From contig JAUYBE010000006.1 in NCBI GenBank assembly GCA_030693235.1, forward strand, positions 139,601 through 203,600: a DNA stretch of 64,000 nucleotides. Direction: 5' to 3'. Positions within the stretch are counted from its first letter, which is position 1, and every line of letters starts with the position of its first letter. Under the pieces are notes generated by a model. The model saw only the letters and a list, made by a program, of their open reading frames with translations, had not been told where the DNA came from and made no database searches. This document shows, one piece after another, positions 1 to 51,656 of this stretch. The translations under genes and the position numbers were made by a program. Source of the DNA: a bacterium. Its GTDB lineage: Bacteria > Patescibacteriota > Minisyncoccia > UBA6257 > UBA9933.

Positions 1-576
1 GGGGCAACTGCCGTAGCATTGTCTGGTCACTCTCTGGTTATTATTGGCGGTGAAGCTGAGATACGATGTTTAAATCAAATACCTAAGGAATATTGTGCAG
101 TATTGTTATATCCCAAAAATATGAAATCTATTAGCGGAGTCACAGATATACGTCTTTATAGAAAAGGATTTCCTCTATTCAAAAATATGAGTACGGAGTG
201 GGGAGATATTAAAGAAAATATGTTAAAAACAAAGATCATACCAGCGGTTAAGAAAAACGATTATTCGGTTTTATTTAAGGCAATTAATATGTATACGATC
301 GGCGCTTATGGTGATATACCACAATATTTTAAATATCGCTGGGCATCTCATAATATTTTCTTTGACTCGTTTATATATAGCATTTTTTCAAAGCTTTTTG
401 GATCATTAAAAATCGATGAAAATTGTTTTTTTGTTTCTTCCGGGGGTCCACTTATTGTTATTATTACTAAACATTATAAAAAGGCGGTATACTTATTAGG
501 ATATCTAAAGAAAGATTTTATCATTAATAAAGTATCGCTTTATAAAAGGTCAAGCAATTTCCAATTATTAAGATAA
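1..576 (+). CDS. hypothetical protein (5'-truncated; ORF is open from the window edge in the same frame as the listed 19..576 ORF)
   Basis: No stop codon between nt 1 and 19 in this frame. No family motif recognised. Confidence 0.35.
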   Translation, partial: GATAVALSGHSLVIIGGEAEIRCLNQIPKEYCAVLLYPKNMKSISGVTDIRLYRKGFPLFKNMSTEWGDIKENMLKTKIIPAVKKNDYSVLFKAINMYTIGAYGDIPQYFKYRWASHNIFFDSFIYSIFSKLFGSLKIDENCFFVSSGGPLIVIITKHYKKAVYLLGYLKKDFIINKVSLYKRSSNFQLLR

Positions 577-1135: not shown

Positions 1136-1206
1136 TCGGGCCGCCGGGATTCGAACCCGGAATAAATCCACCCCATGGACTCGTGCTGCCATTACACTAC
1201 AGCCCG
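1136..1206 (-). tRNA. tRNA-Pro (anticodon GGG)
   Basis: The reverse complement folds as a cloverleaf. Acceptor is CGGGCTG/CGGCCCG, the T-arm is CCGGGTTCGAATCCCGG, and the anticodon loop ATGGGGT gives GGG. Confidence 0.75.
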
Positions 1207-2653: not shown

Positions 2654-2732
2654 CTTTTAGGTTTTAGTTTTTAGGTTTTAGATAATAAATTTCTAACACC
2701 TAACACCTAACACTTAACACCTAATACCTAAC
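2654..2732. repeat. family A themed palindrome (TTTTAGG)n-loop-(CCTAACA)n abutting the rpsG start
   Basis: Direct reading. The 3' arm ends 1 nt before the TTG start at 2733. Confidence 0.8.
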
Positions 2733-3200
2733 TTGAGAAGAAAACGTAAATATAAAAAAATTCATCAACCCGACGTTCAATATAATAATATCGCTGTTTC
2801 GCGGTTTATTAACTATTTAATGAAAGGCGGTAAAAAATCCGTTGCCGAGAAATTATTTTACAAATCTTTTGCTAATATTCAAAAGGAAACTAAAACAGAG
2901 CCGCTTTCGATTTTCGAAAAAGCCCTTGAAAACGCCACGCCGCTTCTGGAAGTCGTGTCCAAGCGCGTTGGCGGCGCCAATTATCAGGTGCCTAGAGAAG
3001 TCAGGCCGGAAAGGAAATTTTTATTGGCTTGCCGTTGGATTATTGAAGCAGCTGCGTCAAAAAAAGGTAAACCAATGGCTCAAAAATTGGCCGAAGAATT
3101 AATCGCGGCGTCAAAGAACGAAGGCGCGGCTATAAAGAAAAAACAGAATGTTCATAGAATGGCGGAAGCAAACAGAGCCTTCGCGCATTTCGCCAGATAG
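2733..3200 (+). CDS. rpsG: 30S ribosomal protein S7 (TTG start)
   Basis: RRKRKYKKI...NYLMKGGKKSVAEKLFY matches the uS7 N-terminus. The first codon is ttg. Confidence 0.9.
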   Translation: MRRKRKYKKIHQPDVQYNNIAVSRFINYLMKGGKKSVAEKLFYKSFANIQKETKTEPLSIFEKALENATPLLEVVSKRVGGANYQVPREVRPERKFLLACRWIIEAAASKKGKPMAQKLAEELIAASKNEGAAIKKKQNVHRMAEANRAFAHFAR

Positions 3201-3202
3201 AT

Positions 3203-3275
3203 TAGTTTTTAGGTTTTAGTTTTTAGGTTTTAGATAAAAAAATCTAACACCTAACACCTAACACCTAACACCTAA
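3203..3275. repeat. family A themed palindrome abutting the fusA start
   Basis: Same motifs and orientation as 2654-2732. Ends 2 nt before the TTG start at 3278. Confidence 0.8.
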
Positions 3276-3277
3276 AA

Positions 3278-5428
3278 TTGCGTCAATATCCCTTAGAAAA
3301 ATATAGAAATATAGGAATAATAGCCCATATCGATGCCGGCAAAACAACCGTTTCCGAACGGGTTCTTTTTTATACCGGTGTTTCTCATAAAATCGGCGAG
3401 GTCCATGAGGGAGAGGCGATTATGGATTGGATGGAACAGGAAAAAGAAAGGGGAATCACCATCACCGCGGCGGCCACTACTTGTTTTTGGATGCCGACGT
3501 ATCGTCGGCCGCAGAATTACGCGGACTTGACGCGGACCGACGCGGAAGAAATCAAAAAAAAATATGAACATAGGATTAACATTATTGATACGCCCGGCCA
3601 TATCGATTTCACGGTTGAAGTTCAACGTTCATTAAGGGTGCTTGACGCTGCGGTTGTTATTTTTGACGGCGTGGCCGGCGTTGAACCGCAGTCCGAAACC
3701 GTCTGGCATCAGGCGGATAAATTTAAAGTGCCGCGAATTTGTTTTATCAATAAATTGGACCGGATAGGCGCTAATTTTGAGAAATCGTTTCTTTCAATCC
3801 AGGAAAGATTGAATCCCAACGCGATTGTCGTTCAAATACCGATAGGTCTGGAAGCAAATTTTGAAGGCATTATTGATTTGCTGGCAATGAAGGCTTTTTA
3901 TTTTGAAGGCGATCGCGGCGAAAAAATTATTGAAAAAGAAATACCAAACGAGTTAAAAGTTCAAAGTGAAAAGTTAAAAGTTCTATTAATTGAAAAAATC
4001 TCTGAAACCGACGAAAAATTGACGCAAAAATATCTTGAAGGAAAAGAAATCAGTTTTGAAGAACTTAAACAGGCGATGAGAAAAGCCACAATCAACAGTC
4101 AATTGGTTCCGGTTTTTTGCGGTTCGGCGTTGAAAAACAAAGGCGTTCAGTTGATGCTCGACGCCGTTTTGGATTATTTGCCTTCGCCGCTTGATTTGAA
4201 AGAAATCAAGCCGATTGAAGGAGCGCATCCGAAAACCGAAGAAAAAATTAATCGTCAACCGGCGGATAATGAACCGCTGGCGGCTTTGGCTTTTAAAATC
4301 GCCACAGACCCTTATGTCGGCAGCCTCACCTTCGTCAGAGTTTACAGCGGCGTTCTTAAGAGGGGATCTTACGTTCTGAATTCATCAAAGGGCAATCAGG
4401 AAAGAATCGGCCGGATTGTCCGAATGCACGCCAATCAACGGGAAGAAGTCGAGGAAATGTATGCCGGCGATTTGGGCGCGGCCGTAGGATTGAAAGGAAC
4501 TTCCACGGGCGATACTTTGTGCGATCCGGGCAATCCGATTGTTTTGGAAAAGATTATTTTCCCGGAGCCGGTGATTTCCGTCAGAATCGAGCCGAAAACG
4601 AAAGCCGATCAGGAAAAATTGGGTTTTGCCCTTCATAGATTATCAGAAGAAGATCCGACTTTCCGCATTAGCGGCGACCCCGATACCGGCGAGACGATTA
4701 TTTCCGGTATGGGCGAACTTCATTTGGAAATTATTATTGACCGGGCGAAAAGGGAATTTGGAGTTGAAGCGGATATCGGCAGGCCTCAGGTCGCTTATAA
4801 AGAAACTGTCAACGCCGAGTCCGAAGCTGAGGGTAGATATATCAAGCAATCCGGCGGTCGAGGTCAGTACGGCCATGTTTGGTTAAACGTTAAGTCATTG
4901 GAAAGGGGGAAAGGATTCGTCTTTGTCAATAAAATAAAAGGCGGTATTATTCCCCAGGAATTTATTCCGGCGGTTGAAAAAGGCGTTAAAGAAGCGTTAA
5001 GTAAGGGAATTTTAGCCGGTTATCCGATTGTTGATATTGAGGTGAAACTTTATGACGGTTCTTTTCATGAAGTTGACTCGTCGGAAATCGCTTTTAAAAT
5101 CGCCGGCGCGATGGCTTTTTTGGAAGCGGCAAAAAGAGCCAAGCCGGTGATTTTGGAACCGGTGATGAAAATTCAGGTAATCGCGCCTTTGGAATTTTTA
5201 GGCGACGTTACCGGCGATCTCAATGCCAAGCGCGGAAGGATTGAAAATATTTCAGATAGGGTTAATATTAAAGTGATAGATGTTAAAGTGTCCCTGGCTG
5301 AAATGTTCGGTTACGCGACCAAGTTGCGGTCAATGACTCAGGGCAGAGGAACCTTTACGATGGAATTCGACCATTATGAAGAAGTGCCATCAAATATTGC
5401 CCAGTTGATTATTGAAGGGAAGAAATGA
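3278..5428 (+). CDS. fusA: elongation factor G (TTG start)
   Basis: [17 protein letters not shown]-domain; 716 aa translational GTPase. Confidence 0.95.
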
Positions 5429-5436
5429 TAATAATT

Positions 5437-5508
5437 ATGTGTCATTGCGAACGAAGTGAAGCAATCTATATGTGAGATTGCCGCGGGCTTCGCCCTCGCA
5501 ATGACAGT
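5437..5508. repeat. family C palindrome GTCATTGCGA...TCGCAATGAC
   Basis: Arms gtcattgcgaacgaagtgaagcaatct / agattgccgcgggcttcgccctcgcaatgac. Lies between fusA and rplM. Confidence 0.7.
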
Positions 5509-5514
5509 TATTCA

Positions 5515-5856
5515 ATGCAATACACCATCGATGCCACAAATAAAAAATTGGGAAGATTGGCTTCTGAAATAGCCGTAATTTTGCAAGGCAAAAAAAGTCC
5601 GAAATACGAACCGCGACTGGAAGGCGAGGATAAAGTGTTTATCAAAAATATCAATAATCTGGAAGTTAGCGGCAAGAAAATGAAACAAAAAATTTATTAT
5701 CGCCATACGACTCAGGTCGGCCACTTAAAAGAACAAACTTTGGAGATGCTTTGGCAAAAAAAGGGTCCGGCGGAAGTTTTGCGCCGAGCTGTGCTTCATA
5801 TGTTGCCGAAGAATAGATTAAAAATTAAGAGGATAAAAAGGCTAATAATAGAATGA
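5515..5856 (+). CDS. rplM: 50S ribosomal protein L13
   Basis: IDATNKKLGRLASEIA...YYRHT...LP pattern of uL13. Confidence 0.8.
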   Translation: MQYTIDATNKKLGRLASEIAVILQGKKSPKYEPRLEGEDKVFIKNINNLEVSGKKMKQKIYYRHTTQVGHLKEQTLEMLWQKKGPAEVLRRAVLHMLPKNRLKIKRIKRLIIE

Positions 5857-6284
5857 CTAAACCAATTGAAAAAATCGAAAAAATGTCTGAAAAAAAAGAG
5901 CGTTATTTTGAAGCGGTTGGCAGGCGAAAAACAGCCGTGGCGCGAGTAAGGCTTTTTACAAAAAAAATCGGCATTGAGATTAACGATAAAAATCTCAGCG
6001 ATTATTTTCCGATTCTGCGTCTTCGAAAAACAGTTGAGGCTCCTTTGGAAAAAATGAAAATTGCCGATAAATTGGGAGCGGTTGTTAAAGTTAAGGGCGG
6101 CGGGATTATGGCCCAAGCCGAGGCTATTCAGCTTGGCATTGCTCGGGCTTTGATTAAATTCAATGCTGAATTTAGAAAACGGCTTCGTCGCGTTGATATG
6201 CTCACTCGCGATTCGCGAATGGTTGAGCGAAAAAAATATGGTTTGAAAAAAGCAAGGCGGGCGCCGCAGTGGAAGAAGAGATAA
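5853..6284 (+). CDS. rpsI: 30S ribosomal protein S9
   Basis: GRRKTAVARV... and a C-terminal KKYGLKKARRAPQWKKR. Confidence 0.9.
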   Translation: MTKPIEKIEKMSEKKERYFEAVGRRKTAVARVRLFTKKIGIEINDKNLSDYFPILRLRKTVEAPLEKMKIADKLGAVVKVKGGGIMAQAEAIQLGIARALIKFNAEFRKRLRRVDMLTRDSRMVERKKYGLKKARRAPQWKKR

Positions 6285-6295
6285 CAATAAAATTA

Positions 6296-6360
6296 ACCTA
6301 ATTATTCTAATTTCTAATTTCTAAATTAGGTCAATTAGAAATTAGGTCAATTAGAAATTT
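6296..6360. repeat. themed palindrome (TCTAATT)n / (AATTAGAAATTAGG)n
   Basis: Direct reading of inverted tandem motifs downstream of rpsI. Confidence 0.6.
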
Positions 6361-6367
6361 AAAGGCG

Positions 6368-6910
6368 ATGCTTTCTCTAAAATTTATAATAGGTCTTTTA
6401 ATCCTAATTCTTTCCTTCCATATATTAACTACTATCAATCATTGGTATTGGACTTATCCCTGGCTTGATATACCAATGCATTTTCTTGGCGGTTTTTGGG
6501 TGGCGATGGTGTTCTTGTATTTTTGGCGCTCTGCCCATATTTCTATCGGCGCCGGGCGTTTGTCGACTCCAGCGGTCGACACCGCCCTACGCTCTCGGTT
6601 TGCCGACTCCAACTTTGTCGGAGACCAAGCTCGGCGAACCTCCGAGAGTTGCCGTACGAAACACGGGAAGATCGCTAATTCGTTTATTTTGTTGATTTTA
6701 GTGTTGAGTTTTGTGGCTCTAATCGGCGTTTTCTGGGAATTTTATGAATTTCTTTACGATGTTTTAATTTCCAGCCGCGGTTATTCGGGGTTTGCGCGAT
6801 TGGGCGCCGCCGACATGATAGGAGATTTATTTTTTGACCTTTTAGGCGGCTTGACGTTTTTGATAATTTGCCGCATAATGAATTTAAATAATAATAAAAC
6901 AATACAATAA
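6368..6910 (+). CDS. hypothetical membrane protein with an internal GC-rich segment
   Basis: Multiple hydrophobic helices. No family recognised. Confidence 0.4.
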   Translation: MLSLKFIIGLLILILSFHILTTINHWYWTYPWLDIPMHFLGGFWVAMVFLYFWRSAHISIGAGRLSTPAVDTALRSRFADSNFVGDQARRTSESCRTKHGKIANSFILLILVLSFVALIGVFWEFYEFLYDVLISSRGYSGFARLGAADMIGDLFFDLLGGLTFLIICRIMNLNNNKTIQ

Positions 6911-10104: not shown

Positions 10105-10719
10105 ATGAAAAGATCTAAAGAAAAACTGGAACGTTCGTTGGGGATGAAGCTTTTTTTGAAAGCGGATCGTTGTAATTCGCCAAAATGCGCGATGGTCAGG
10201 CATCCTCAGCGTCCGGGTATGCATGGCGGAAAACGCCGGAGGGCGAAAACAGAATATGGCGATCAATTATTGGAAAAACAAAGAATAAGAGCAAGCTACG
10301 GGCTTCGGGAAAAACAACTGGCCCGCATTGTCGAAGAGTCTATGAAAAAAACGGGTTCAGTGGGCGAAGCGATTATCAGCTCTTTGGAGCGTCAGTTTTT
10401 CAATGTGATTTTTCGTCTGGGAATAGCGCCTTCACGGGTTGTTTCAAGACAATTTATCAGCCATGGTCATTTTTTGGTTAACGGTAAAAAAGTTACCATT
10501 CCTTCTTATTCGACTAAAATAGGAGACATAGTTTCCATTAAACCTTCTTCTCGCGAGCTCTTGATTTTTAAAGATTTGCCTGATAAGCTTAAAAAATACG
10601 AAACGCTGGAATGGCTTGATTTGGATAAAGAAAAACTGGAAGGCAAAGTAAAGTCCTTGCCGCGCGATATTGAAATTCCGTTTGATATAAATTTAGTGGT
10701 GGATTATTATTCTAAATGA
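10105..10719 (+). CDS. rpsD: 30S ribosomal protein S4
   Basis: SYGLREKQ...GHFLVNGKKVTIPSY... uS4 pattern. Confidence 0.9.
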   Translation: MKRSKEKLERSLGMKLFLKADRCNSPKCAMVRHPQRPGMHGGKRRRAKTEYGDQLLEKQRIRASYGLREKQLARIVEESMKKTGSVGEAIISSLERQFFNVIFRLGIAPSRVVSRQFISHGHFLVNGKKVTIPSYSTKIGDIVSIKPSSRELLIFKDLPDKLKKYETLEWLDLDKEKLEGKVKSLPRDIEIPFDINLVVDYYSK

Positions 10720-10790
10720 GTTTTTAGGTTTTAGTTTTTAGGTTTTAGATAAAAAAATCTAACACCTAACACCTAACACCTAACACCTAA
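10720..10790. repeat. family A themed palindrome abutting the rpoA start
   Basis: Same motif and orientation. Ends 4 nt before the GTG start at 10795. Confidence 0.8.
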
Positions 10791-10794
10791 AAAA

Positions 10795-11544
10795 GTGGAA
10801 TACACAAAACTTAGCGATGCCGTAAAAATTAAAAAAGTTTCTGAAACCGAACGCGAGGGCGTTTTTGAAATTGAAGGGCTTTATGCCGGTTATGGATTGA
10901 CTTTAGGCAATTCTTTGCGCCGCGTCCTTCTTTCTTCATTGCCGGGAGCCGCCATTACCCAAATAAAAATTAAAGGCGTGGAACACGAATTTTCAACAAT
11001 TCCCGGAGTATTGGAAGACGTTCTCGAGATAACCTCAAATCTTAAAAAAGTGCGCTTTCATTTTTACGCCGCCGAGCCCCAGATTTTAACTTTGAAAATC
11101 AAAGGAGAGAAAAAAGTCCTGGCCAAAGACATTAAAACAAACGCTCAAGTGGAAGTGGTTAATCCGGACGCTCATATTGCCACTCTTACAAGCAAGAATG
11201 CCGAAATTGATATGGAGATTATTGTGGAAAAGGGGCTTGGTTATGTTCCTGTGGAAGCCAGAAAAATCGAGAAATTGCCCGTTAAAACAATCGCTCTTGA
11301 CGCTATTTTTACGCCAGTGGTTAAAGTTAATTTTAACGTTGAAAATATGCGGGTTGGCGAACGCACCGACTACAACAGATTAAGACTTTTTATTGAAACC
11401 GACGGCAGTATTACGCCTTCAAGCGTTCTTCATAAATCTTGCAGTATTTTAAAAGACCACTTTGAAAAAATTTCGGCGCTCGAAATTAAAGGAATAGAAT
11501 CGAAAGCGGAACCGGCGGAGAAAAAAACGAAAAAGAAAAAGTAA
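10795..11544 (+). CDS. rpoA: DNA-directed RNA polymerase alpha subunit, N-terminal domain only (GTG start)
   Basis: alpha-NTD motifs (GYGLTLGNSLRRVLLSSLPGAAIT). Ends after 249 aa with a lysine tail. No alpha-CTD coding space remains before rplQ. Confidence 0.85.
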   Translation: MEYTKLSDAVKIKKVSETEREGVFEIEGLYAGYGLTLGNSLRRVLLSSLPGAAITQIKIKGVEHEFSTIPGVLEDVLEITSNLKKVRFHFYAAEPQILTLKIKGEKKVLAKDIKTNAQVEVVNPDAHIATLTSKNAEIDMEIIVEKGLGYVPVEARKIEKLPVKTIALDAIFTPVVKVNFNVENMRVGERTDYNRLRLFIETDGSITPSSVLHKSCSILKDHFEKISALEIKGIESKAEPAEKKTKKKK

Positions 11545-18818: not shown

Positions 18819-19049
18819 ATGAAAAGAACACTACAAGGAACAATAGTTTCCGATAAAATGAATAAAACCAGAGTTGTGGCTGTAACGCGTCTTAAAAAAC
18901 ATCCGATATATCATAAATATTATAAAGTAACGCGGAAATTTAAGGCGCATGACGAAAAAAACGAATATAAGGCCGGAGAAAAAGTAATCATTGAAGAAAC
19001 AAGGCCGATCAGCAAAGATAAAAGATGGAGAATTATTGGGAAACAATAA
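18819..19049 (+). CDS. rpsQ: 30S ribosomal protein S17
   Basis: [18 protein letters not shown]...[27 protein letters not shown]. Confidence 0.85.
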
Positions 19050-19050
19050 G

Positions 19051-19118
19051 TTTTTAGGTTTTAGTTTTTAGGTTTTAGAGAATTTCTAACACCTAACACC
19101 TAACACCTAACACCTAAA
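19051..19118. repeat. family A themed palindrome abutting the rplN start
   Basis: Same motif and orientation. Ends 4 nt before the ATG at 19123. Confidence 0.8.
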
Positions 19119-19122
19119 TAAA

Positions 19123-48260: not shown

Positions 48261-48896
48261 CTAAGCGAATAACTCATCCAATGAATGAATTATTGCGGTG
48301 GCGTATTCTTTTAAATCGAATTTGTGTTCTTTTCTATTAAGATAAATAAAATCAACTCCTGTGTTTTTGGCATAATAAGCGTCTTCACTGCTGTTTCCCA
48401 CGTATACGGTTTCCTCCGGTTTTAAACAAAGTTGCTCGAGCGTGTGATGAAAACTTGACGGATCGGGCTTTTCGCTAAATTCGCTGTCCGCGATGGAAAA
48501 ATAAAAATCATGCGGAGCGCCGTTTAATTTTTTTATTTCTATTTGCGCTATTTTACGGGGAGCTCCCGTGATAATAGAGATTGTTTTACCCAAATCTTTT
48601 AATTTTCTGAATGTCGGTTCCGCGTCTTCATACGCTTGCGTATGAGCTGAACGCTGTTCCGGCGTATCTATAATATGAAAAAGTTCCCAAAATTTATCGG
48701 GGTTTAAATTAAAATGATTTTTTATGATTTCGCTTCTTCCTGATTCAAACCAAAATCTATCAATAACAAATTCATCCGCTATATTCCCGCCAAGCTGTTT
48801 TATTACCACAGGCACGACTCTGTGCCTGTATTCAGGCATTGTATGTATTAACGTGCCGTCTAAATCAAAAGAAATGTGTTTATATTTATTAATCAT
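48261..48896 (-). CDS. HAD superfamily hydrolase
   Basis: ISFDLDGTLI motif I. GNSSED. Confidence 0.6.
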   Translation of the reverse strand: MINKYKHISFDLDGTLIHTMPEYRHRVVPVVIKQLGGNIADEFVIDRFWFESGRSEIIKNHFNLNPDKFWELFHIIDTPEQRSAHTQAYEDAEPTFRKLKDLGKTISIITGAPRKIAQIEIKKLNGAPHDFYFSIADSEFSEKPDPSSFHHTLEQLCLKPEETVYVGNSSEDAYYAKNTGVDFIYLNRKEHKFDLKEYATAIIHSLDELFA

Positions 48897-48927
48897 AATA
48901 ACCGATCTTGAATAAATTTACGAATTT

Positions 48928-49599
48928 TCATTTTTTGATCACTAAAGATAAAGTTTTATCAAAATCTCTATTTTTTTTCCAAGATTTTTCAATTAATCGT
49001 CTTAATTTATTATGCGGAGCGCGGCCATAATCCGGGAAAAATAAAAATTTATCAAATTCTAAATTGAGTAAAACCGTGAATGCTTCTTTTATGTCCCAAA
49101 TTTTATTTTCTGAAAGTCCGCTATTTTCACATTTTTCCCAATAATATTTATGGAACATAAAATGCATTAGCTCGTGCATGGCTGTGTCAATTGCTATGTA
49201 TTTATTGCTAAACATTTTGACCGCAAACCATTCTTCTTTTATTTTATAACCAAACTTATCGGCAGAAGATAATACTCCTTTAACTGATTTATGGGGAAAT
49301 CGGTGTTTATGTACTTGTTCCAGTTTTTTAATAAAATCCTTTTCAATTTTTAACCACTCTTTGTTTATATCTTGAGCAAGAGATTTTAATTGCCTTTCTT
49401 TTTTATAAAGATATTCAATATTTTTTCTTATAACATTTTTTCTCTTTATTAGGGGTAATTTTAATAAATTTTCATTTGCTGGGATTATTTGTTGCGGAAA
49501 CCCCCGATCTATATTTCTTTTATATGCATTTAAAGCAATTAGATGATTTTCAATGTCTAAATTTTTATCAATAACAAATTTAATTATTTGTTTTTTCAT
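48928..49599 (-). CDS. hypothetical protein with an HExxH motif (MHELMHF)
   Basis: AT-rich 223-aa ORF with a candidate zincin-like motif. Confidence 0.3.
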   Translation of the reverse strand: MKKQIIKFVIDKNLDIENHLIALNAYKRNIDRGFPQQIIPANENLLKLPLIKRKNVIRKNIEYLYKKERQLKSLAQDINKEWLKIEKDFIKKLEQVHKHRFPHKSVKGVLSSADKFGYKIKEEWFAVKMFSNKYIAIDTAMHELMHFMFHKYYWEKCENSGLSENKIWDIKEAFTVLLNLEFDKFLFFPDYGRAPHNKLRRLIEKSWKKNRDFDKTLSLVIKK

Positions 49600-49607
49600 A
49601 AAGTTGG

Positions 49608-49678
49608 CTGCGGGGCTAGGAATCGGACCTAGATTTAGAGATTCAAAGTCTCTCGTGCTACCATTACACTACCCCGCA
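49608..49678 (-). tRNA. tRNA-Gln (anticodon UUG)
   Basis: The reverse complement is TGCGGGGTAGTGTAATGGTAGCACGAGAGACTTTGAATCTCTAAATCTAGGTCCGATTCCTAGCCCCGCAG. Anticodon loop is CTTTGAA. Confidence 0.7.
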
Positions 49679-50353
49679 ATTTCCCAAAATACCTTCTATC
49701 CAACCGCTAATTTTTCTGTTTAAATTAGTACTTTTGTTCACTAATATCCTTACTAATCCATAATAATTCTCATTCGTATTTTTTCTTTTCGTATTAACTT
49801 TGTTTCTTTTAAAATATACATATTTAAATTTATTTTGTGAAGCTTTAGTGATTTTTGACCAGTACTGGATGGAATCAACTACTTTATTTTTAGAATTTTC
49901 GTGTATGTAAATTTCATACTTTATATCATTTTCCGGTATTTTTAATATTTTACGCAACCATTCCATAAAAACTTTTATCATCATTGGATCGGAATTGCTA
50001 AAAGTTACTCCTTGACTAATATTATGCGGTTTTGATTTACTGCCTTCAGCCCAATATAAAGAAACTCCTATTAGCCATAATTCTCTATTTGAAATGTTTT
50101 TTATTTCCGAAATAGCTTTATTTTTAATGAGCCGGACTATTTCAATCCTTTTATTTCTTTTGGCGATAGCCCCGCGTTGCATACTAGCCAATTTCTTTTC
50201 TGTCAATCTTTGTTTTTGTTTTTTAGACAAACCAACCGATCTTAGCCATAAAGAAAGCGTTGATTTAGCAACCGGAATTTGTTTTAAAATTTCAGAATAA
50301 GAAAAACCCAACTTTCTTAAATTTATTGCCTTTTCTTTTGCTGTGGCTTTCAT
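49664..50353 (-). CDS. HTH plus LAGLIDADG-like protein (candidate homing-endonuclease-like); its 3' end overlaps the tRNA-Gln 5' end
   Basis: N-terminal HTH-like FSYSEILKQIPVAKSTLSLWLR. LIGVSLYWAEGSK resembles LAGLIDADG. The last codons (CGVV*) are encoded by tRNA acceptor/D-arm sequence. Confidence 0.3.
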   Translation of the reverse strand: MKATAKEKAINLRKLGFSYSEILKQIPVAKSTLSLWLRSVGLSKKQKQRLTEKKLASMQRGAIAKRNKRIEIVRLIKNKAISEIKNISNRELWLIGVSLYWAEGSKSKPHNISQGVTFSNSDPMMIKVFMEWLRKILKIPENDIKYEIYIHENSKNKVVDSIQYWSKITKASQNKFKYVYFKRNKVNTKRKNTNENYYGLVRILVNKSTNLNRKISGWIEGILGNCGVV

Positions 50354-50408
50354 ATGAACAACGATGATATATGTAAATTATATTATATCGTTGTTCGAAA
50401 ATCAATCA

Positions 50409-51515
50409 TTATTTCAAATTTTCTATAATTGCCACTTCCAGCGGCACGATTGCGAACGGACTATAACGCATTTCAGTGTAAGCTTCAATCAGCGATTTAA
50501 TCAATCTAACGGTTTTTTCCGCGTCAATCGCTTGGCTGTGTTTTTTAATGGTTTTCATTTCTTGGTCGGTCAGTTCGCGGGAAAAATGATTTTCCAGTTC
50601 CGGAGAAAATTTTAAAGCCAAAACTCGGCGGAAATAATGGATTAAATCTTTATTGAGCTGGGTAAGATTATAACCGCCTTCGTTAATCTTGGAAAGATAT
50701 TCCAATCCGGCCGCCAAATCGCGATTTATCAGCAATTCCGCCAGTTTGGATGTTTTTGAAAAAGAAACGGAGCCGATAATTTCTTCAACATCGTTAATGT
50801 CTATTTGTTTTCCGGATTTTAGCGAAGCAATCTGATCTAAAAGCGATTCGGCGTCGCGCATGCTTCCGCCGCCCGCTTCGGCGATTAATTCAACGGCTTC
50901 ATCGCTGATTTTAATGCTTTCCGTTTCGGAGATGCTTTTCAGTTTTTCGGCTATTGTCTTAAGCGCCAGTCTTTTGAAATGAAATCTTTGAGTTCGGGAA
51001 ATAATCGTCGCCGGCATTTTTTCGGCTTCGGTGGTTACCAAAATTAAAATCGCGTGAGCCGGCGGTTCTTCTAAAGTTTTCAAAAGAGCGTTAAAAGCGT
51101 CTTTGGTCAATTGGTGGGCTTCGTCAATAATATAAACTTTATAATGATACGCGGCAGGGGAGACGCGAATGCTTTCTTTGATGTCGCGGATTTCATCAAT
51201 GCCTCGATTGGAAGCGGCGTCAATTTCAATAACGTCCATTGCAGAACCCTTGTCAATTTCCAAACAAGCTTGGCATTCATTGCACGGTTCGCCGAGTTTT
51301 TTAAAAGCCGCGTCGCTAAATCGCTTTTGGCAATTGGCGATTTTGGCGATAATTCTGGCGGTGGTGGTTTTACCCGAACCTTTCGGTCCGTAAAACAAAT
51401 AAGCGTGAGCCAAACGGTCAAGCCGTCCCGCGTTTTTTAAAAGTTCCGAGACTGCTTCTTGTCCCAGAAGATCGGATAAGATTTTGGGCCGATATTTGCG
51501 ATAAATAGCCAGCAT
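50409..51515 (-). CDS. dnaX: DNA polymerase III subunit gamma/tau (short form)
   Basis: FYGPKGSGKTTTARIIAK..C..C zinc module and SRC/clamp-loader motifs. Confidence 0.85.
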   Translation of the reverse strand: MLAIYRKYRPKILSDLLGQEAVSELLKNAGRLDRLAHAYLFYGPKGSGKTTTARIIAKIANCQKRFSDAAFKKLGEPCNECQACLEIDKGSAMDVIEIDAASNRGIDEIRDIKESIRVSPAAYHYKVYIIDEAHQLTKDAFNALLKTLEEPPAHAILILVTTEAEKMPATIISRTQRFHFKRLALKTIAEKLKSISETESIKISDEAVELIAEAGGGSMRDAESLLDQIASLKSGKQIDINDVEEIIGSVSFSKTSKLAELLINRDLAAGLEYLSKINEGGYNLTQLNKDLIHYFRRVLALKFSPELENHFSRELTDQEMKTIKKHSQAIDAEKTVRLIKSLIEAYTEMRYSPFAIVPLEVAIIENLK

Positions 51516-51519
51516 TTGT

Positions 51520-51590
51520 TTAGGTGTTAGGTGTTTAGGTGTTAGGTGTTAGTTAATTTCTAAAACCTAAAAGCTAAAACCTAAAAGCTT
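51520..51590. repeat. family A themed palindrome in reverse orientation, abutting the dnaX start on the minus strand
   Basis: gtttaggtgttaggtgtttaggtgttaggtgttag...ctaaaacctaaaagctaaaacctaaaagc. Orientation relative to the downstream gene is as for the other copies. Confidence 0.8.
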
Positions 51591-51656
51591 AAATTACATT
51601 TTACATTAAAACATCCACCCTTGACAAGTTTTGGCAGTCTGCTATCCTCTTAATAT

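What the first reader, a model, noticed from the sequence alone, without database searches (positions are those of the whole stretch)
48928..50353. AT-rich module around tRNA-Gln: an HExxH protein and an HTH/LAGLIDADG-like ORF that overlaps the tRNA
The 49664..50353 ORF (N-terminal HTH-like segment; LIGVSLYWAEGSK resembling a LAGLIDADG motif) terminates inside the 5' part of tRNA-Gln. Its last four codons are encoded by tRNA acceptor/D-arm sequence. Downstream of the tRNA on the same strand is a 223-aa ORF with a MHELMHF motif. Both ORFs are markedly more AT-rich than neighbours such as obg and dnaX. A free-standing homing-endonuclease-like gene abutting a tRNA suggests a small mobile insertion. 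The LAGLIDADG assignment is tentative because the motif spacing is atypical.
Basis: partly seen in the sequence, partly recalled or inferred. Interest (0 to 1): 0.5.

Follow-up and report, generated by a model that had tools for sequence, protein, structure and literature searches.

The report
Endonuclease-like gene cassette targeting tRNA-Gln
A small gene for a DNA-binding, homing-endonuclease-like protein has inserted itself directly in front of a glutamine tRNA gene and appears to bring its own replacement front half of that tRNA, a way of invading an essential gene without breaking it that is widespread in ultra-small (Patescibacteria) bacteria and giant phages but has no name or description yet.

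Summary
A 229-aa ORF (49664..50353, minus strand) ends 15 nt inside tRNA-Gln(UUG) (49605..49678). It and the downstream 223-aa HExxH ORF are the two lowest-GC ORFs of 55 in the window.

It behaves as an insertion. The closest Wolfebacteria relatives have dnaX followed 5-34 nt later by tRNA-Gln, with no ORF. The 5' part of the window's tRNA is diverged from its nearest relative, while the 3' 30 nt are identical. In three other loci an orphan tRNA-Gln 5' half, broken in the anticodon loop, lies just upstream of the conserved ORF leader.

Best reading: a free-standing homing-endonuclease cassette that targets the tRNA gene and restores it with its own 5' half. Cleavage activity is inferred, not shown.

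ORF B is not part of the cassette. It is an ordinary chromosomal gene of unknown function.

The parts
49664..50353 (-). ORF A: 229-aa protein with an N-terminal HTH and a LAGLIDADG-like C-terminal domain. It is a putative free-standing homing endonuclease. The coordinates include the TAA stop, which lies inside the tRNA.
   Evidence: ORF listing and sequence. The family has more than 2,131 proteins and 5,596 clusters at 50% identity. AlphaFold models have pLDDT 80.9 (full length) and 86.1 (C-terminal domain).
50237..50350 (-). N-terminal three-helix HTH (residues 2-39), of the homeodomain-like / resolvase / Tc3 type.
50036..50080 (-). LAGLIDADG-like helix and motif LWLIGVSLYWAEGSK (residues 92-106). 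G96, L99, W101, E103, G104 and K106 are invariant.
   Evidence: Family alignment. hhalign aligns residues 83-135 to I-DmoI 97-144, placing E103 opposite E117 and K106 opposite K120. The motif is kept in the viral relatives as LYWAEG[ST]K.
49667..50095 (-). C-terminal alpha/beta domain (residues 87-229).
49605..49678 (-). tRNA-Gln(UUG), intact, with encoded CCA.
   Evidence: ARAGORN and Rfam RF00005 at 66.9 bits.
49664..49678 (-). 15-nt overlap between ORF A and the tRNA. ORF A codons C-G-V-V-stop are tRNA nt 1-15.
   Evidence: Sequence. The same 15-nt overlap occurs in about 38 of 77 related loci; in the rest the ORF mostly stops 1-13 nt before the tRNA.
49635..49670 (-). Diverged tract of the tRNA (nt 9-44: D-arm and anticodon arm), interpreted as carried in or co-converted with ORF A.
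   Evidence: Against L217 (dnaX 91% nt identical): 12 of 36 differences in this tract, 0 of 8 before it and 0 of 30 after it. Against the ORF A-bearing L225: only 4 differences.
50354..50408 (-). Conserved leader of the cassette. It runs from just after the dnaX stop to the ORF A ATG.
   Evidence: The leader is alignable in WIN, L225, L223, L224 and L221. A similar design appears in about 40 or more of 78 loci.
50377..50405 (-). Promoter-like site TTGATT-N17-TATAAT inside the leader.
   Evidence: It is the best site in the region, matching 10 of 12 positions, and is conserved in related loci. The total count of promoter-like sites in the region is not above chance (11 found, 9.7 expected).
50356..50396 (-). 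Inverted repeat GAACAACGAT...ATCGTTGTTC. It brackets the -10 box and ends 2 nt before the ATG. It could be an operator or a translational hairpin.
   Evidence: the repeat finder pair I8. Covariation over 40 loci: 85.8% of cells paired against 76.6% in shuffles (0 of 500 reach it), score 0.277 against 0.137, and slid controls at 26-56%.
48928..49599 (-). ORF B: 223-aa HExxH protein of unknown function. It is adjacent to the cassette but not part of it.
   Evidence: 68 homologs, no family match, absent from all 80 ORF A loci, and found in other genomic contexts.
50409..51515 (-). dnaX (DNA polymerase III gamma/tau), the upstream boundary gene of the insertion slot.
   Evidence: Precomputed Pfam domains and source names of its homologs. 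Similarity to L217 ends at window position 50408, right at the dnaX stop.

Best explanation
ORF A is the gene of a free-standing homing endonuclease. It has a single LAGLIDADG-like domain, probably acts as a homodimer, and carries an N-terminal HTH for extra DNA binding. Together with its short leader it forms a cassette of about 770 bp that targets the tRNA-Gln(UUG) gene.

The cassette consists of three parts:
- a leader holding its own promoter, set inside a palindrome;
- the ORF;
- at its 3' end, a replacement copy of roughly the first 36 nt of tRNA-Gln.

It enters the target tRNA gene in the anticodon loop, just 3' of the anticodon. The cassette's own 5' half joins the remainder of the tRNA, so an intact tRNA gene is rebuilt without any splicing. 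The displaced host 5' half is left upstream as an orphan and is later deleted.

Because the ORF runs straight into the tRNA 5' half it carries, its last codons and its stop codon (TAA in the D-loop) are tRNA sequence.

In this window the orphan is already gone, and the leader abuts the dnaX stop codon.

**Shown here:**
- the family-wide linkage to tRNA genes;
- presence/absence among close relatives;
- the mosaic tRNA;
- the orphan halves with a shared breakpoint;
- the conserved leader.

**Inferred, not shown:**
- endonuclease activity;
- the cleavage site;
- repair-mediated copying (homing);
- the role of the palindrome, which could be autorepression by the HTH or a block on translation of read-through transcripts.
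For: 1. **Linkage to tRNA-Gln.** In 77 of 80 loci from diverse Patescibacteria, tRNA-Gln(ttg) lies on the same strand at the ORF's 3' end. The ORF either overlaps it by 15 nt or stops a few nt before it.
2. **Linkage to other tRNAs.**
   - A paralog in L025 ends inside tRNA-Gly(gcc) in the same way.
   - 16 viral-contig relatives sit in phage tRNA arrays, often -15 to +12 nt from the next tRNA.
3. **Presence/absence among Wolfebacteria relatives**.
   - L219 and L220 (dnaX 78-80% aa identical) have dnaX followed 34 nt and 5 nt later by tRNA-Gln.
   - L217 (94.6%) has a Peptidase_M29 gene in the slot.
   - ORF A is present in more distant relatives (dnaX 62-76%), with a constant 728-730 nt from the dnaX stop to the tRNA in L223, L224 and L225.
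   - L098 and L099 are further empty sites.
   - L136 lacks both family ORFs that L025 has, although the tRNA-Val/Leu block between them is 99-100% identical. The tRNAs next to the ORFs are the diverged ones, at 83% and 88%.
4. **Mosaic tRNA.** Against L217 there are 12 of 36 differences in nt 9-44 and none in nt 1-8 or nt 45-74.
5. **Orphan tRNA halves.**
   - Orphan tRNA-Gln 5' halves of 36 nt, ending ...CTTTGA, lie directly before the leader in L221/L222 (two samples) and L010.
   - A decayed copy is present in L020.
   - Each orphan differs from the working tRNA's 5' half in the same locus (28/36 and 26/36 identical).
   - The D-arm and anticodon stem of the L221 orphan match the ORF-less allele of L220.
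7. **Composition.** ORF A is one of the two lowest-GC ORFs in the window.
8. **No intron.** No group I intron or other known RNA overlaps the cassette.
Against: - **The predicted topology differs.** It has an extra helix compared with the canonical alpha-beta-beta-alpha-beta-beta-alpha fold.
- **The family is unusually well conserved for a selfish gene.** It has uniform length, 33 invariant columns and few pseudogenes. That would fit a domesticated function.
- **Orphan halves are rare.** They are seen in only 3 lineages out of 86 loci, and not in this window.
- **The 3' half is not simply host-derived.** In L221 the 3' acceptor strand of the working tRNA pairs with the cassette's 5' strand, not with the orphan's. 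The whole tRNA must therefore have been converted or imported, which makes the simple "5' half only" picture incomplete.
- **The slot is variable in general.** The dnaX/tRNA-Gln slot also holds an unrelated gene in L217, so it may be a variable site for other reasons.
- **Nothing biochemical was tested.** No cleavage or DNA-binding data exist.
Confidence: 0.6

Rival explanations
1. ORF A is a domesticated, catalytically inactive DNA-binding protein derived from a LAGLIDADG scaffold, analogous to WhiA. It would regulate transcription of the adjacent tRNA-Gln and of itself through the palindromic leader. Under this reading its distribution reflects vertical inheritance with repeated loss, not homing.
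For: - The HTH is clear.
- A covarying palindrome overlaps the promoter, as expected of an operator.
- The family is strongly conserved, with uniform length and few pseudogenes.
- The tRNA has no room for a promoter of its own between the ORF and tRNA nt 1, so its transcription must start within or upstream of ORF A.
Against: - E103 and K106, the residues aligned to I-DmoI E117 and K120, are invariant. WhiA-type proteins have lost the catalytic acidic residues (that statement is from background knowledge, not tested here).
- A regulator does not explain the orphan tRNA 5' halves with a common breakpoint.
- It also does not explain the mosaic tRNA.
- Paralogs sit next to other tRNAs and in phage tRNA arrays.
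- The four closest relatives lack the gene while more distant ones have it at an identical junction.
Confidence: 0.2
2. The cassette is mobile, but ORF A is not the nuclease that moves it. ORF A would be a passenger, or a DNA-binding accessory factor. The insertion would arise from general recombination at a hypervariable tRNA-Gln hotspot, or from an element-encoded recombinase located elsewhere.
For: - The region around tRNA-Gln is hypervariable. The genes downstream are mostly unique to each locus.
- Serine-recombinase-like genes lie next to the tRNA in 5 loci.
- In L217 an unrelated peptidase gene fills the same slot.
- IS200-type and DDE-type transposases occur nearby in L219 and L226.
- The nuclease fold assignment is weak.
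Against: - The inserted unit is constant and minimal, a leader plus one ORF of about 730 nt, with no recombinase inside it.
- The junctions are precise and shared between divergent lineages.
- Known integrases target tRNA 3' ends and restore the 3' part, not the 5' part (background knowledge).
- The only feature common to all contexts is the tRNA immediately downstream.
Confidence: 0.12
3. ORF A is an ordinary conserved hypothetical gene whose end happens to overlap a tRNA because the genome is compact. On this view there is no mobility and no functional link.
For: Gene overlaps are common in small genomes. dnaX lies upstream of ORF A in 33 of 76 loci, which suggests some stable synteny.
Against: - 77 of 80 loci show the same tRNA species in the same geometry.
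- Empty sites exist in close relatives.
- Orphan tRNA halves are present.
- The ORF is a composition outlier.
- Relatives occur in phage tRNA arrays.
Confidence: 0.03

Closest known systems
Phage T4 SegB, a free-standing GIY-YIG homing endonuclease in the tRNA gene cluster (PMC2330249)
   Same: - It is a free-standing endonuclease gene (not in an intron) embedded among tRNA genes.
- Its recognition site corresponds to conserved tRNA sequence, the T-psi-C stem-loop.
- Relatives that lack the gene exist.
- Homing carries flanking tRNA-region markers along with the gene.

The viral relatives of ORF A occupy the same kind of position in phage tRNA arrays.
   Different: - The catalytic family is different: GIY-YIG in SegB, an HTH plus LAGLIDADG-like domain here.
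- SegB does not overlap a tRNA, and it is not reported to carry a replacement tRNA half.
- The inferred target here is the anticodon loop, not the T-arm.
- The main host range here is cellular (Patescibacteria chromosomes).
- SegB activity is demonstrated biochemically. Activity here is only inferred.
Fungal mitochondrial mobile ORF elements (mORFs), first described for Allomyces macrogynus atp6 and also seen in Glomus atp6/atp9/cox2/nad3 (PMC3630166)
   Same: - A LAGLIDADG or GIY-YIG endonuclease ORF inserts inside a host gene and brings a foreign copy of the displaced gene end, so the gene stays functional without splicing.
- The native end persists next to it as a diverged duplicate.

The orphan tRNA-Gln 5' halves in L221/L222, L010 and L020, and their divergence from the working copy (28/36 and 26/36 identical), match this logic.
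   Different: - The polarity is a mirror image. Here the 5' end of the gene is replaced and the ORF lies upstream of it. In mORFs the 3' (C-terminal) end is replaced and the ORF lies downstream of it.
- The target here is a tRNA gene, not a protein-coding gene.
- The hosts are bacteria and phages, not mitochondria.
- In the window the native remnant has already been lost.
Single-motif LAGLIDADG homing endonucleases (I-CreI type), compared here through I-DmoI domain 2, I-Tsp061I and intein endonuclease domains
   Same: - A helix ending in xxAEGxK, followed by a beta-rich saddle.
- An invariant acidic residue, E103, aligned to I-DmoI E117.
- These proteins are the best structural neighbours of the C-terminal domain.
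   Different: - No significant sequence-profile match to any LAGLIDADG family.
- The motif spacing is atypical, with G96 two residues further from the acidic residue than in canonical motifs.
- The model has an extra helix between the strands.
- An N-terminal HTH and a long linker helix are present.
Group I introns with homing endonuclease genes in bacterial tRNA anticodon loops, including Patescibacteria tRNA-Asn and tRNA-Asp (PMC13011429)
   Same: - The same host phylum.
- The same kind of target, a tRNA anticodon loop.
- The same general problem of invading an essential tRNA gene without inactivating it.
   Different: - No ribozyme is present. Rfam finds no intron in 48700..50700.
- The tRNA is continuous.
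- Gene integrity is restored by a duplicated 5' half rather than by splicing.
- That paper does not mention tRNA-Gln or this ORF family.
WhiA, a LAGLIDADG-derived transcription factor
   Same: - It combines a LAGLIDADG-type fold with an HTH.
   Different: - WhiA has two LAGLIDADG domains and a C-terminal HTH. ORF A has one domain and an N-terminal HTH.
- ORF A keeps the acidic residue.
- WhiA is a stable core gene, not a presence/absence insertion.

Membership tests
LAGLIDADG homing endonucleases | A LAGLIDADG helix ending in a conserved acidic residue (D or E) followed by G. | tested here: met
   The motif LIGVSLYWAEGSK has E103 and G104 invariant in 30 and in 40 aligned members and in the viral relatives. 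It aligns to I-DmoI ...GLYVAEGDK. The spacing of the upstream glycine is atypical.
LAGLIDADG homing endonucleases | The alpha-beta-beta-alpha-beta-beta-alpha core fold. | tested here: inconclusive
LAGLIDADG homing endonucleases | A significant match to a curated family profile (Pfam LAGLIDADG_1/2/3 and similar). | tested here: not met
   The window protein has no match. LAGLIDADG_3 matches 3 of 30 members, with a best E of 0.034, below the gathering score. The family profile finds nothing in PDB sequences.
LAGLIDADG homing endonucleases | Site-specific double-strand cleavage of a long target site. | not testable with these tools
   This needs purified protein and tRNA-Gln gene substrates.
Homing elements in general | Sporadic presence/absence at one precise site among close relatives, with co-conversion of the flanks. 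| tested here: met
   Empty sites are found in L219, L220, L098, L099 and L136. Filled sites have an identical junction in WIN, L223, L224 and L225. The tRNA is mosaic (12 of 36 differences against 0 of 38), and the tRNAs adjacent to the ORFs are the diverged ones in the L025/L136 comparison.
Gene-end-replacing endonuclease elements (mORF type) | The element carries a replacement copy of the displaced gene end, and the native end persists as a diverged duplicate. | tested here: met
   Met in L221/L222, L010 and L020. Not met in the window itself, where no remnant is left.
SegB-like free-standing endonucleases of tRNA clusters | A GIY-YIG catalytic domain. | tested here: not met
   No GIY-YIG match in Pfam, NCBIfam or PHROGs, and the fold is different. 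The resemblance is functional and positional, not homology.
tRNA group I intron with a homing endonuclease gene | A group I ribozyme interrupting the tRNA. | tested here: not met
   An Rfam E-value scan of 48700..50700 finds only the tRNA, and the tRNA is continuous.
Integrase-borne islands at tRNA genes | A tyrosine or serine recombinase within the element, with a duplicated tRNA 3' end. | tested here: not met
   The cassette holds one ORF with no recombinase domain. The duplication is of the 5' half, and no 3'-half remnant lies downstream.
WhiA-like regulators | Two degenerate LAGLIDADG domains plus a C-terminal HTH, with the catalytic residues lost. | tested here: not met
   ORF A has a single domain, an N-terminal HTH and an invariant E103.
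HExxH zinc metallopeptidases (for ORF B) | An HExxH motif within a recognised metallopeptidase family profile. | tested here: inconclusive
   The motif HELMH is nearly invariant, but no family match exists. One of 32 members hits Peptidase_M78 weakly, at E 0.0044, and there are no meaningful PDB hits. No structure was predicted for ORF B.

The most novel reading that the evidence does not exclude
This is an undescribed, widespread class of intron-free homing elements for tRNA genes. An HTH-LAGLIDADG-like endonuclease cassette cuts a tRNA gene in the anticodon loop and repairs the damage it causes by carrying a spare tRNA 5' half, so splicing is never needed.

Different family members would have diversified onto different tRNAs: Gln and Gly in Patescibacteria, and Leu, Cys, His, Lys and Val in giant-phage tRNA arrays. 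They would drive turnover and horizontal exchange of tRNA alleles.

A further possibility is that expression is self-limited in two ways. One is a palindromic operator or hairpin over the promoter and start codon. The other is RNase P processing of the tRNA, which would remove the ORF's stop codon.
Probability: 0.4. Interest if true: 0.75.

Novelty: new variant of a known kind. Interest (0 to 1): 0.62.

Why it matters
If the reading is right, several things follow.

- **An unnamed family gets a role.** Thousands of "hypothetical" proteins, with no Pfam family, found in Patescibacteria and in large phages, would be explained.
- **A new way to invade an essential gene.** Selfish elements are known to invade essential RNA genes by riding in self-splicing introns. 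Carrying a spare gene end is known for protein-coding genes in fungal mitochondria, but I found no report of it for bacterial tRNA genes.
- **It bears on reduced genomes.** It may help explain how Patescibacteria tolerate so many insertions in their translation genes.
- **It affects tRNA analyses.** The tRNA next to such a cassette may be partly foreign. That matters for tRNA-based phylogeny and for annotation, because gene callers truncate the ORF, read it through the tRNA, or fuse it with the next gene.
- **Possible tool value.** If family members prove to be active enzymes with different tRNA-gene specificities, they would be a natural panel of long-site endonucleases with a modular HTH.

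Tried and rejected
- **Family libraries.** Pfam, NCBIfam and PHROGs scans of both ORFs found nothing beyond weak HTH matches.
- **PDB sequence searches.** The ORF A family profile found nothing. The ORF B profile found only chance coiled-coil-like matches.
- **Foldseek.** No hit against the PDB. The afdb50 library was unavailable.
- **GenBank phages.** tblastn with a viral relative found no match.
- **Metagenome scan with a tRNA-Gln 5' pattern.**
  - The pattern was not specific to Patescibacteria. Most hits were high-GC tRNA-Gln(CUG) genes.
  - Seven of the eight automatic "ORF A upstream" calls were artefacts, because tblastn matched translated tRNA read-through tails. Only L105 was real.
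  - The scan was still useful, because it yielded the empty sites.
  - It cannot be used to estimate how frequent ORF A is.
- **Target-site duplication in the window.** None found.
- **3'-half tRNA remnants downstream of the working tRNA in L221 and L010.** None found.
- **Orphan halves upstream of the viral copies.** None found. The L081 score is explained by a complete tRNA-Leu upstream.
- **L023 as a third step of remnant decay.** Not significant.
- **RNAalifold on the leaders.** It kept only the invariant 5-bp core. The full 10-bp repeat had to be tested explicitly.
- **ORF A and ORF B as one module.** Rejected.
- **ORF A as a core Patescibacteria gene.** Rejected because of the empty sites in close relatives.
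Full report
**1. The observation**

The window carries tRNA-Gln(UUG) at 49605..49678 on the minus strand (ARAGORN; Rfam tRNA at 66.9 bits).

ORF A (49664..50353, minus strand, 229 aa) ends ...N-C-G-V-V-stop. The codons tgc ggg gta gtg taa are tRNA nucleotides 1-15. ORF B (48928..49599, minus strand, 223 aa, motif MHELMHFMFH) begins 5 nt after the tRNA's encoded CCA.

Both ORFs are markedly AT-rich:

| Feature | GC |
|---|---|
| ORF A | 0.296 |
| ORF B | 0.268 |
| dnaX | 0.430 |
| obg | 0.423 |
| Mean of 55 ORFs in the window | 0.392 (SD 0.038) |

ORF A and ORF B are the two lowest of those 55 ORFs.

**2. What ORF A encodes**

No curated library recognises the whole protein (Pfam, NCBIfam and PHROGs). 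It nevertheless belongs to a very large family. A word-indexed search finds more than 2,131 proteins, all about 230 aa, 55-79% identical among the top hits, and all labelled "hypothetical" in Patescibacteria, Parcubacteria or Wolfebacteria records. An exhaustive profile search finds 5,596 clusters at 50% identity.

The evidence on the C-terminal domain is mixed:

- hhalign places ORF A residues 83-135 on I-DmoI residues 97-144, which are the second LAGLIDADG motif and the helix after it. This puts E103 opposite E117 and K106 opposite K120, at E 0.023. I verified the I-DmoI sequence I used against the PDB.
- E103, G104 and K106 are invariant in the family and in the viral relatives.
- Pfam LAGLIDADG_3 touches only 3 of 30 members, below threshold.

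I therefore treat "LAGLIDADG-like, single domain" as likely but not proven.

**3. The tRNA overlap is a property of the family**

- In 77 of the 80, tRNA-Gln(UUG) lies on the same strand at the ORF's 3' end.
- The three exceptions are L061 (the tRNA is upstream), L072 (no tRNA) and L075 (the contig ends inside the ORF).
- In about 38 loci the ORF ends exactly 15 nt inside the tRNA (tails CGVV*, CGIV*, CRVV* or WGIV*). In the others it mostly stops 1-13 nt before the tRNA, and in a few it reads through.
- A second, contig-truncated paralog in L025 ends inside tRNA-Gly(GCC) in the same manner.
- Sixteen distant relatives (25-35% identity) on IMG/VR contigs of up to 498 kb sit inside phage tRNA arrays. 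Several lie -15 to +12 nt from the next tRNA (Leu, Cys, His, Lys or Val) and keep both the HTH and LYWAEG[ST]K.
- GenBank phages hold no relative.

**4. It is an insertion**

I used dnaX to rank relatives of this genome and fetched their contigs. The result is summarised here:

| Locus | dnaX aa identity to the window | ORF A | What lies between dnaX and tRNA-Gln |
|---|---|---|---|
| L217 | 94.6% (91% at nt level) | absent | a Peptidase_M29 gene |
| L218 | 91% | absent | a 23S_rRNA_IVP gene follows dnaX; the contig ends before any tRNA |
| L219 | 79.6% | absent | 34 nt |
| L220 | 78.3% | absent | 5 nt |
| L225 | 76.4% | present | 728 nt |
| L223 | 70.9% | present | 729 nt |
| L224 | 68.1% | present | 729 nt |
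| L221 | 62.5% | present | 1,600 nt (two small reverse-strand genes lie between dnaX and ORF A) |
| Window | 100% | present | 730 nt |

ORF A is therefore absent from the four closest relatives and present in more distant ones. In L223, L224 and L225 the distance from the dnaX stop to the tRNA matches the window's to within 2 nt.

Further evidence comes from other loci:

- L098 and L099 are additional empty dnaX/tRNA-Gln junctions.
- L136 and L025 share a tRNA-Gly/Val/Leu block. tRNA-Val is 100% identical, tRNA-Leu 98.8% and the spacers 94-96%.
- L136 lacks both the ORF before tRNA-Gln and the paralog before tRNA-Gly.
- In that pair, the two tRNAs that abut the ORFs are the diverged ones, at 83.3% and 87.7%.

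**5. The tRNA 5' part travels with the ORF**

Against L217, the window's tRNA-Gln has 0 differences in nt 1-8, 12 of 36 in nt 9-44 (the D-arm and anticodon arm, with compensatory changes) and 0 of 30 in nt 45-74. Against L225, which carries ORF A, it has only 4 differences.

**6. Orphan 5' halves**

- In L221 and L222 (the same structure assembled from two different samples) and in L010 (ORF A 53% identical to the window's), the leader is directly preceded by the first 36 nt of a tRNA-Gln, ending ...CTTTGA. That is just 3' of the anticodon.
- The orphans differ from the 5' half of the working tRNA in the same locus (28/36 and 26/36 identical).
- In L221 the orphan's D-arm and anticodon stem equal those of the ORF-less Wolfebacteria allele in L220.
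- L020 keeps a decayed copy (0 of 500 shuffles reach its score). L023 is not significant.
- No 3'-half remnants lie downstream.
- The window itself has no remnant.

It places the insertion point in the anticodon loop.

One complication remains. In L221 the working tRNA's 3' acceptor strand matches the cassette's 5' strand and not the orphan's. Conversion, or import, must therefore have extended through the whole tRNA.

**7. The leader**

The 55 nt between the dnaX stop and the ORF A ATG are conserved in related loci. They contain TTGATT-N17-TATAAT, the best promoter-like site in the region (the total count of such sites is not above chance). They also contain a 10-bp inverted repeat, GAACAACGAT...ATCGTTGTTC, that brackets the -10 box and ends 2 nt before the ATG.

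The same design recurs across the family, and the arm sequences covary. Over 40 loci, 85.8% of cells pair against 76.6% in shuffles (0 of 500 reach it). The covariation score is 0.277 against 0.137, and slid controls give 26-56%.

This fits either a palindromic operator for a dimeric HTH protein or a hairpin that masks the start codon in read-through transcripts. The data here cannot decide between the two.

**8. ORF B**

- It has 68 homologs and no family assignment.
- It is absent from all 80 ORF A loci and has no viral relatives.
- In four loci it lies in a conserved neighbourhood: dnaK-dnaJ...ORF B-Peptidase_S66-AstE/AspA-like-acetyltransferase.
- It is therefore not part of the cassette.
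- One unexplained point: in L227 a homolog starts 14 nt after a tRNA-Gln(CUG), which resembles the window.
- The side downstream of tRNA-Gln is hypervariable in general, with serine-recombinase-like genes in five loci.

**9. Mechanism**

The most economical reading is a free-standing homing-endonuclease cassette made of a leader, the ORF and a tRNA 5' half. It targets the tRNA-Gln gene at the anticodon loop and rebuilds an intact tRNA without splicing.

- *Shown:* linkage, presence/absence, the mosaic tRNA, the orphan halves and the conserved leader.
- *Inferred:* nuclease activity, the exact cut site, and copying by repair.

The main rival is a domesticated WhiA-like regulator. It explains the strong conservation and the palindrome. 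It does not explain the orphan halves, the mosaic tRNA, the phage tRNA-array copies, or the absence of the gene from the closest relatives.

**10. Comparison with known systems**

- Free-standing endonuclease genes in tRNA clusters are known. T4 SegB is a GIY-YIG enzyme that recognises tRNA T-psi-C sequence, and its homing carries flanking tRNA-region markers along (PMC2330249).
- Endonuclease ORFs that insert into a gene and bring a replacement gene end, leaving the native end as a diverged duplicate, are known in fungal mitochondria (PMC3630166).
- Patescibacteria tRNA genes are known to carry group I introns in the anticodon loop, but the paper describing them mentions neither tRNA-Gln nor this ORF (PMC13011429). 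No intron is present here.

What differs here:

- the protein family, which is unnamed and combines an HTH with a LAGLIDADG-like domain;
- the target, a bacterial tRNA gene;
- the polarity, since it is the 5' half that is replaced.

I class it as a new variant of a known kind.

Noticed in passing
L025 nt 64-628 (contig CAZSLG010000026.1): A second ORF A-family paralog, truncated by the contig end, terminates inside tRNA-Gly(gcc) (...SPSAGIV*). The geometry is the same as for ORF A and tRNA-Gln. The close relative L136 lacks it.
   Followed up: partly
L081-L096 (IMG/VR contigs, some 260-498 kb): Distant relatives (25-35% identity) of ORF A are embedded in phage tRNA arrays holding up to 23 tRNAs within 5 kb. 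GenBank phages contain no relative.
   Followed up: partly
L217 nt 2812-4017: In the closest relative (dnaX 94.6% aa identical), a Peptidase_M29 gene occupies the dnaX/tRNA-Gln slot that holds ORF A in the window. The slot is therefore variable for more than one kind of insert.
   Followed up: partly
L023, L031, L033, L047, L059, just downstream of tRNA-Gln: Serine-recombinase-like genes of 430-504 aa lie on the opposite strand next to the 3' side of tRNA-Gln. The genes downstream of the tRNA are mostly unique to each locus, which suggests a separate integration hotspot at the tRNA 3' end.
   Followed up: no
L227 nt 3415-4175; window 48928..49604: An ORF B homolog (58% identical) starts 14 nt after a tRNA-Gln(CUG). 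In the window ORF B starts 5 nt after tRNA-Gln(UUG). Other homologs sit in a dnaK-dnaJ...Peptidase_S66 neighbourhood with no tRNA nearby.
   Followed up: partly
window 2659-2731, 3202-3276, 10719-10797, 19049-19122, 51512-51591: A dispersed repeat of about 75 nt. Five places in the window match the same segment of relative L218 (nt 747-832) at 78-81% identity, and one of them lies just upstream of the dnaX start.
   Followed up: no
window 19-576 (+), near tRNA-Pro(ggg) 1136..1206 (-): This ORF has the third-lowest GC in the window (0.299) and lies close to another tRNA. ORF A gives only a very weak tblastn match at 877-984 (E 0.3).
   Followed up: no
window 49813..49841 (-), inside ORF A: A promoter-like site, TTCACA-N17-TATATT, lies about 135 nt upstream of the tRNA start. 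It could drive tRNA-Gln independently of the ORF A promoter. In this AT-rich region it may be a chance match.
   Followed up: no
proteins P0199, P0210, P0223, P0229, P0239, P0260, P0285: These family members are annotated at 424-576 aa with 2-3 matched stretches. They may be tandem copies, or gene calls that read through an intervening tRNA.
   Followed up: no
L219 nt 4164-6463: Downstream of the empty-site tRNA-Gln lie a Peptidase_S74 (phage tail-fibre-type) gene and an IS200-type Y1 transposase gene.
   Followed up: no
L061 nt 3747-4645: This locus has an exceptional arrangement. A complete tRNA-Gln(UUG) lies about 150 nt upstream of ORF A, and no tRNA is detected downstream of it.
   Followed up: no
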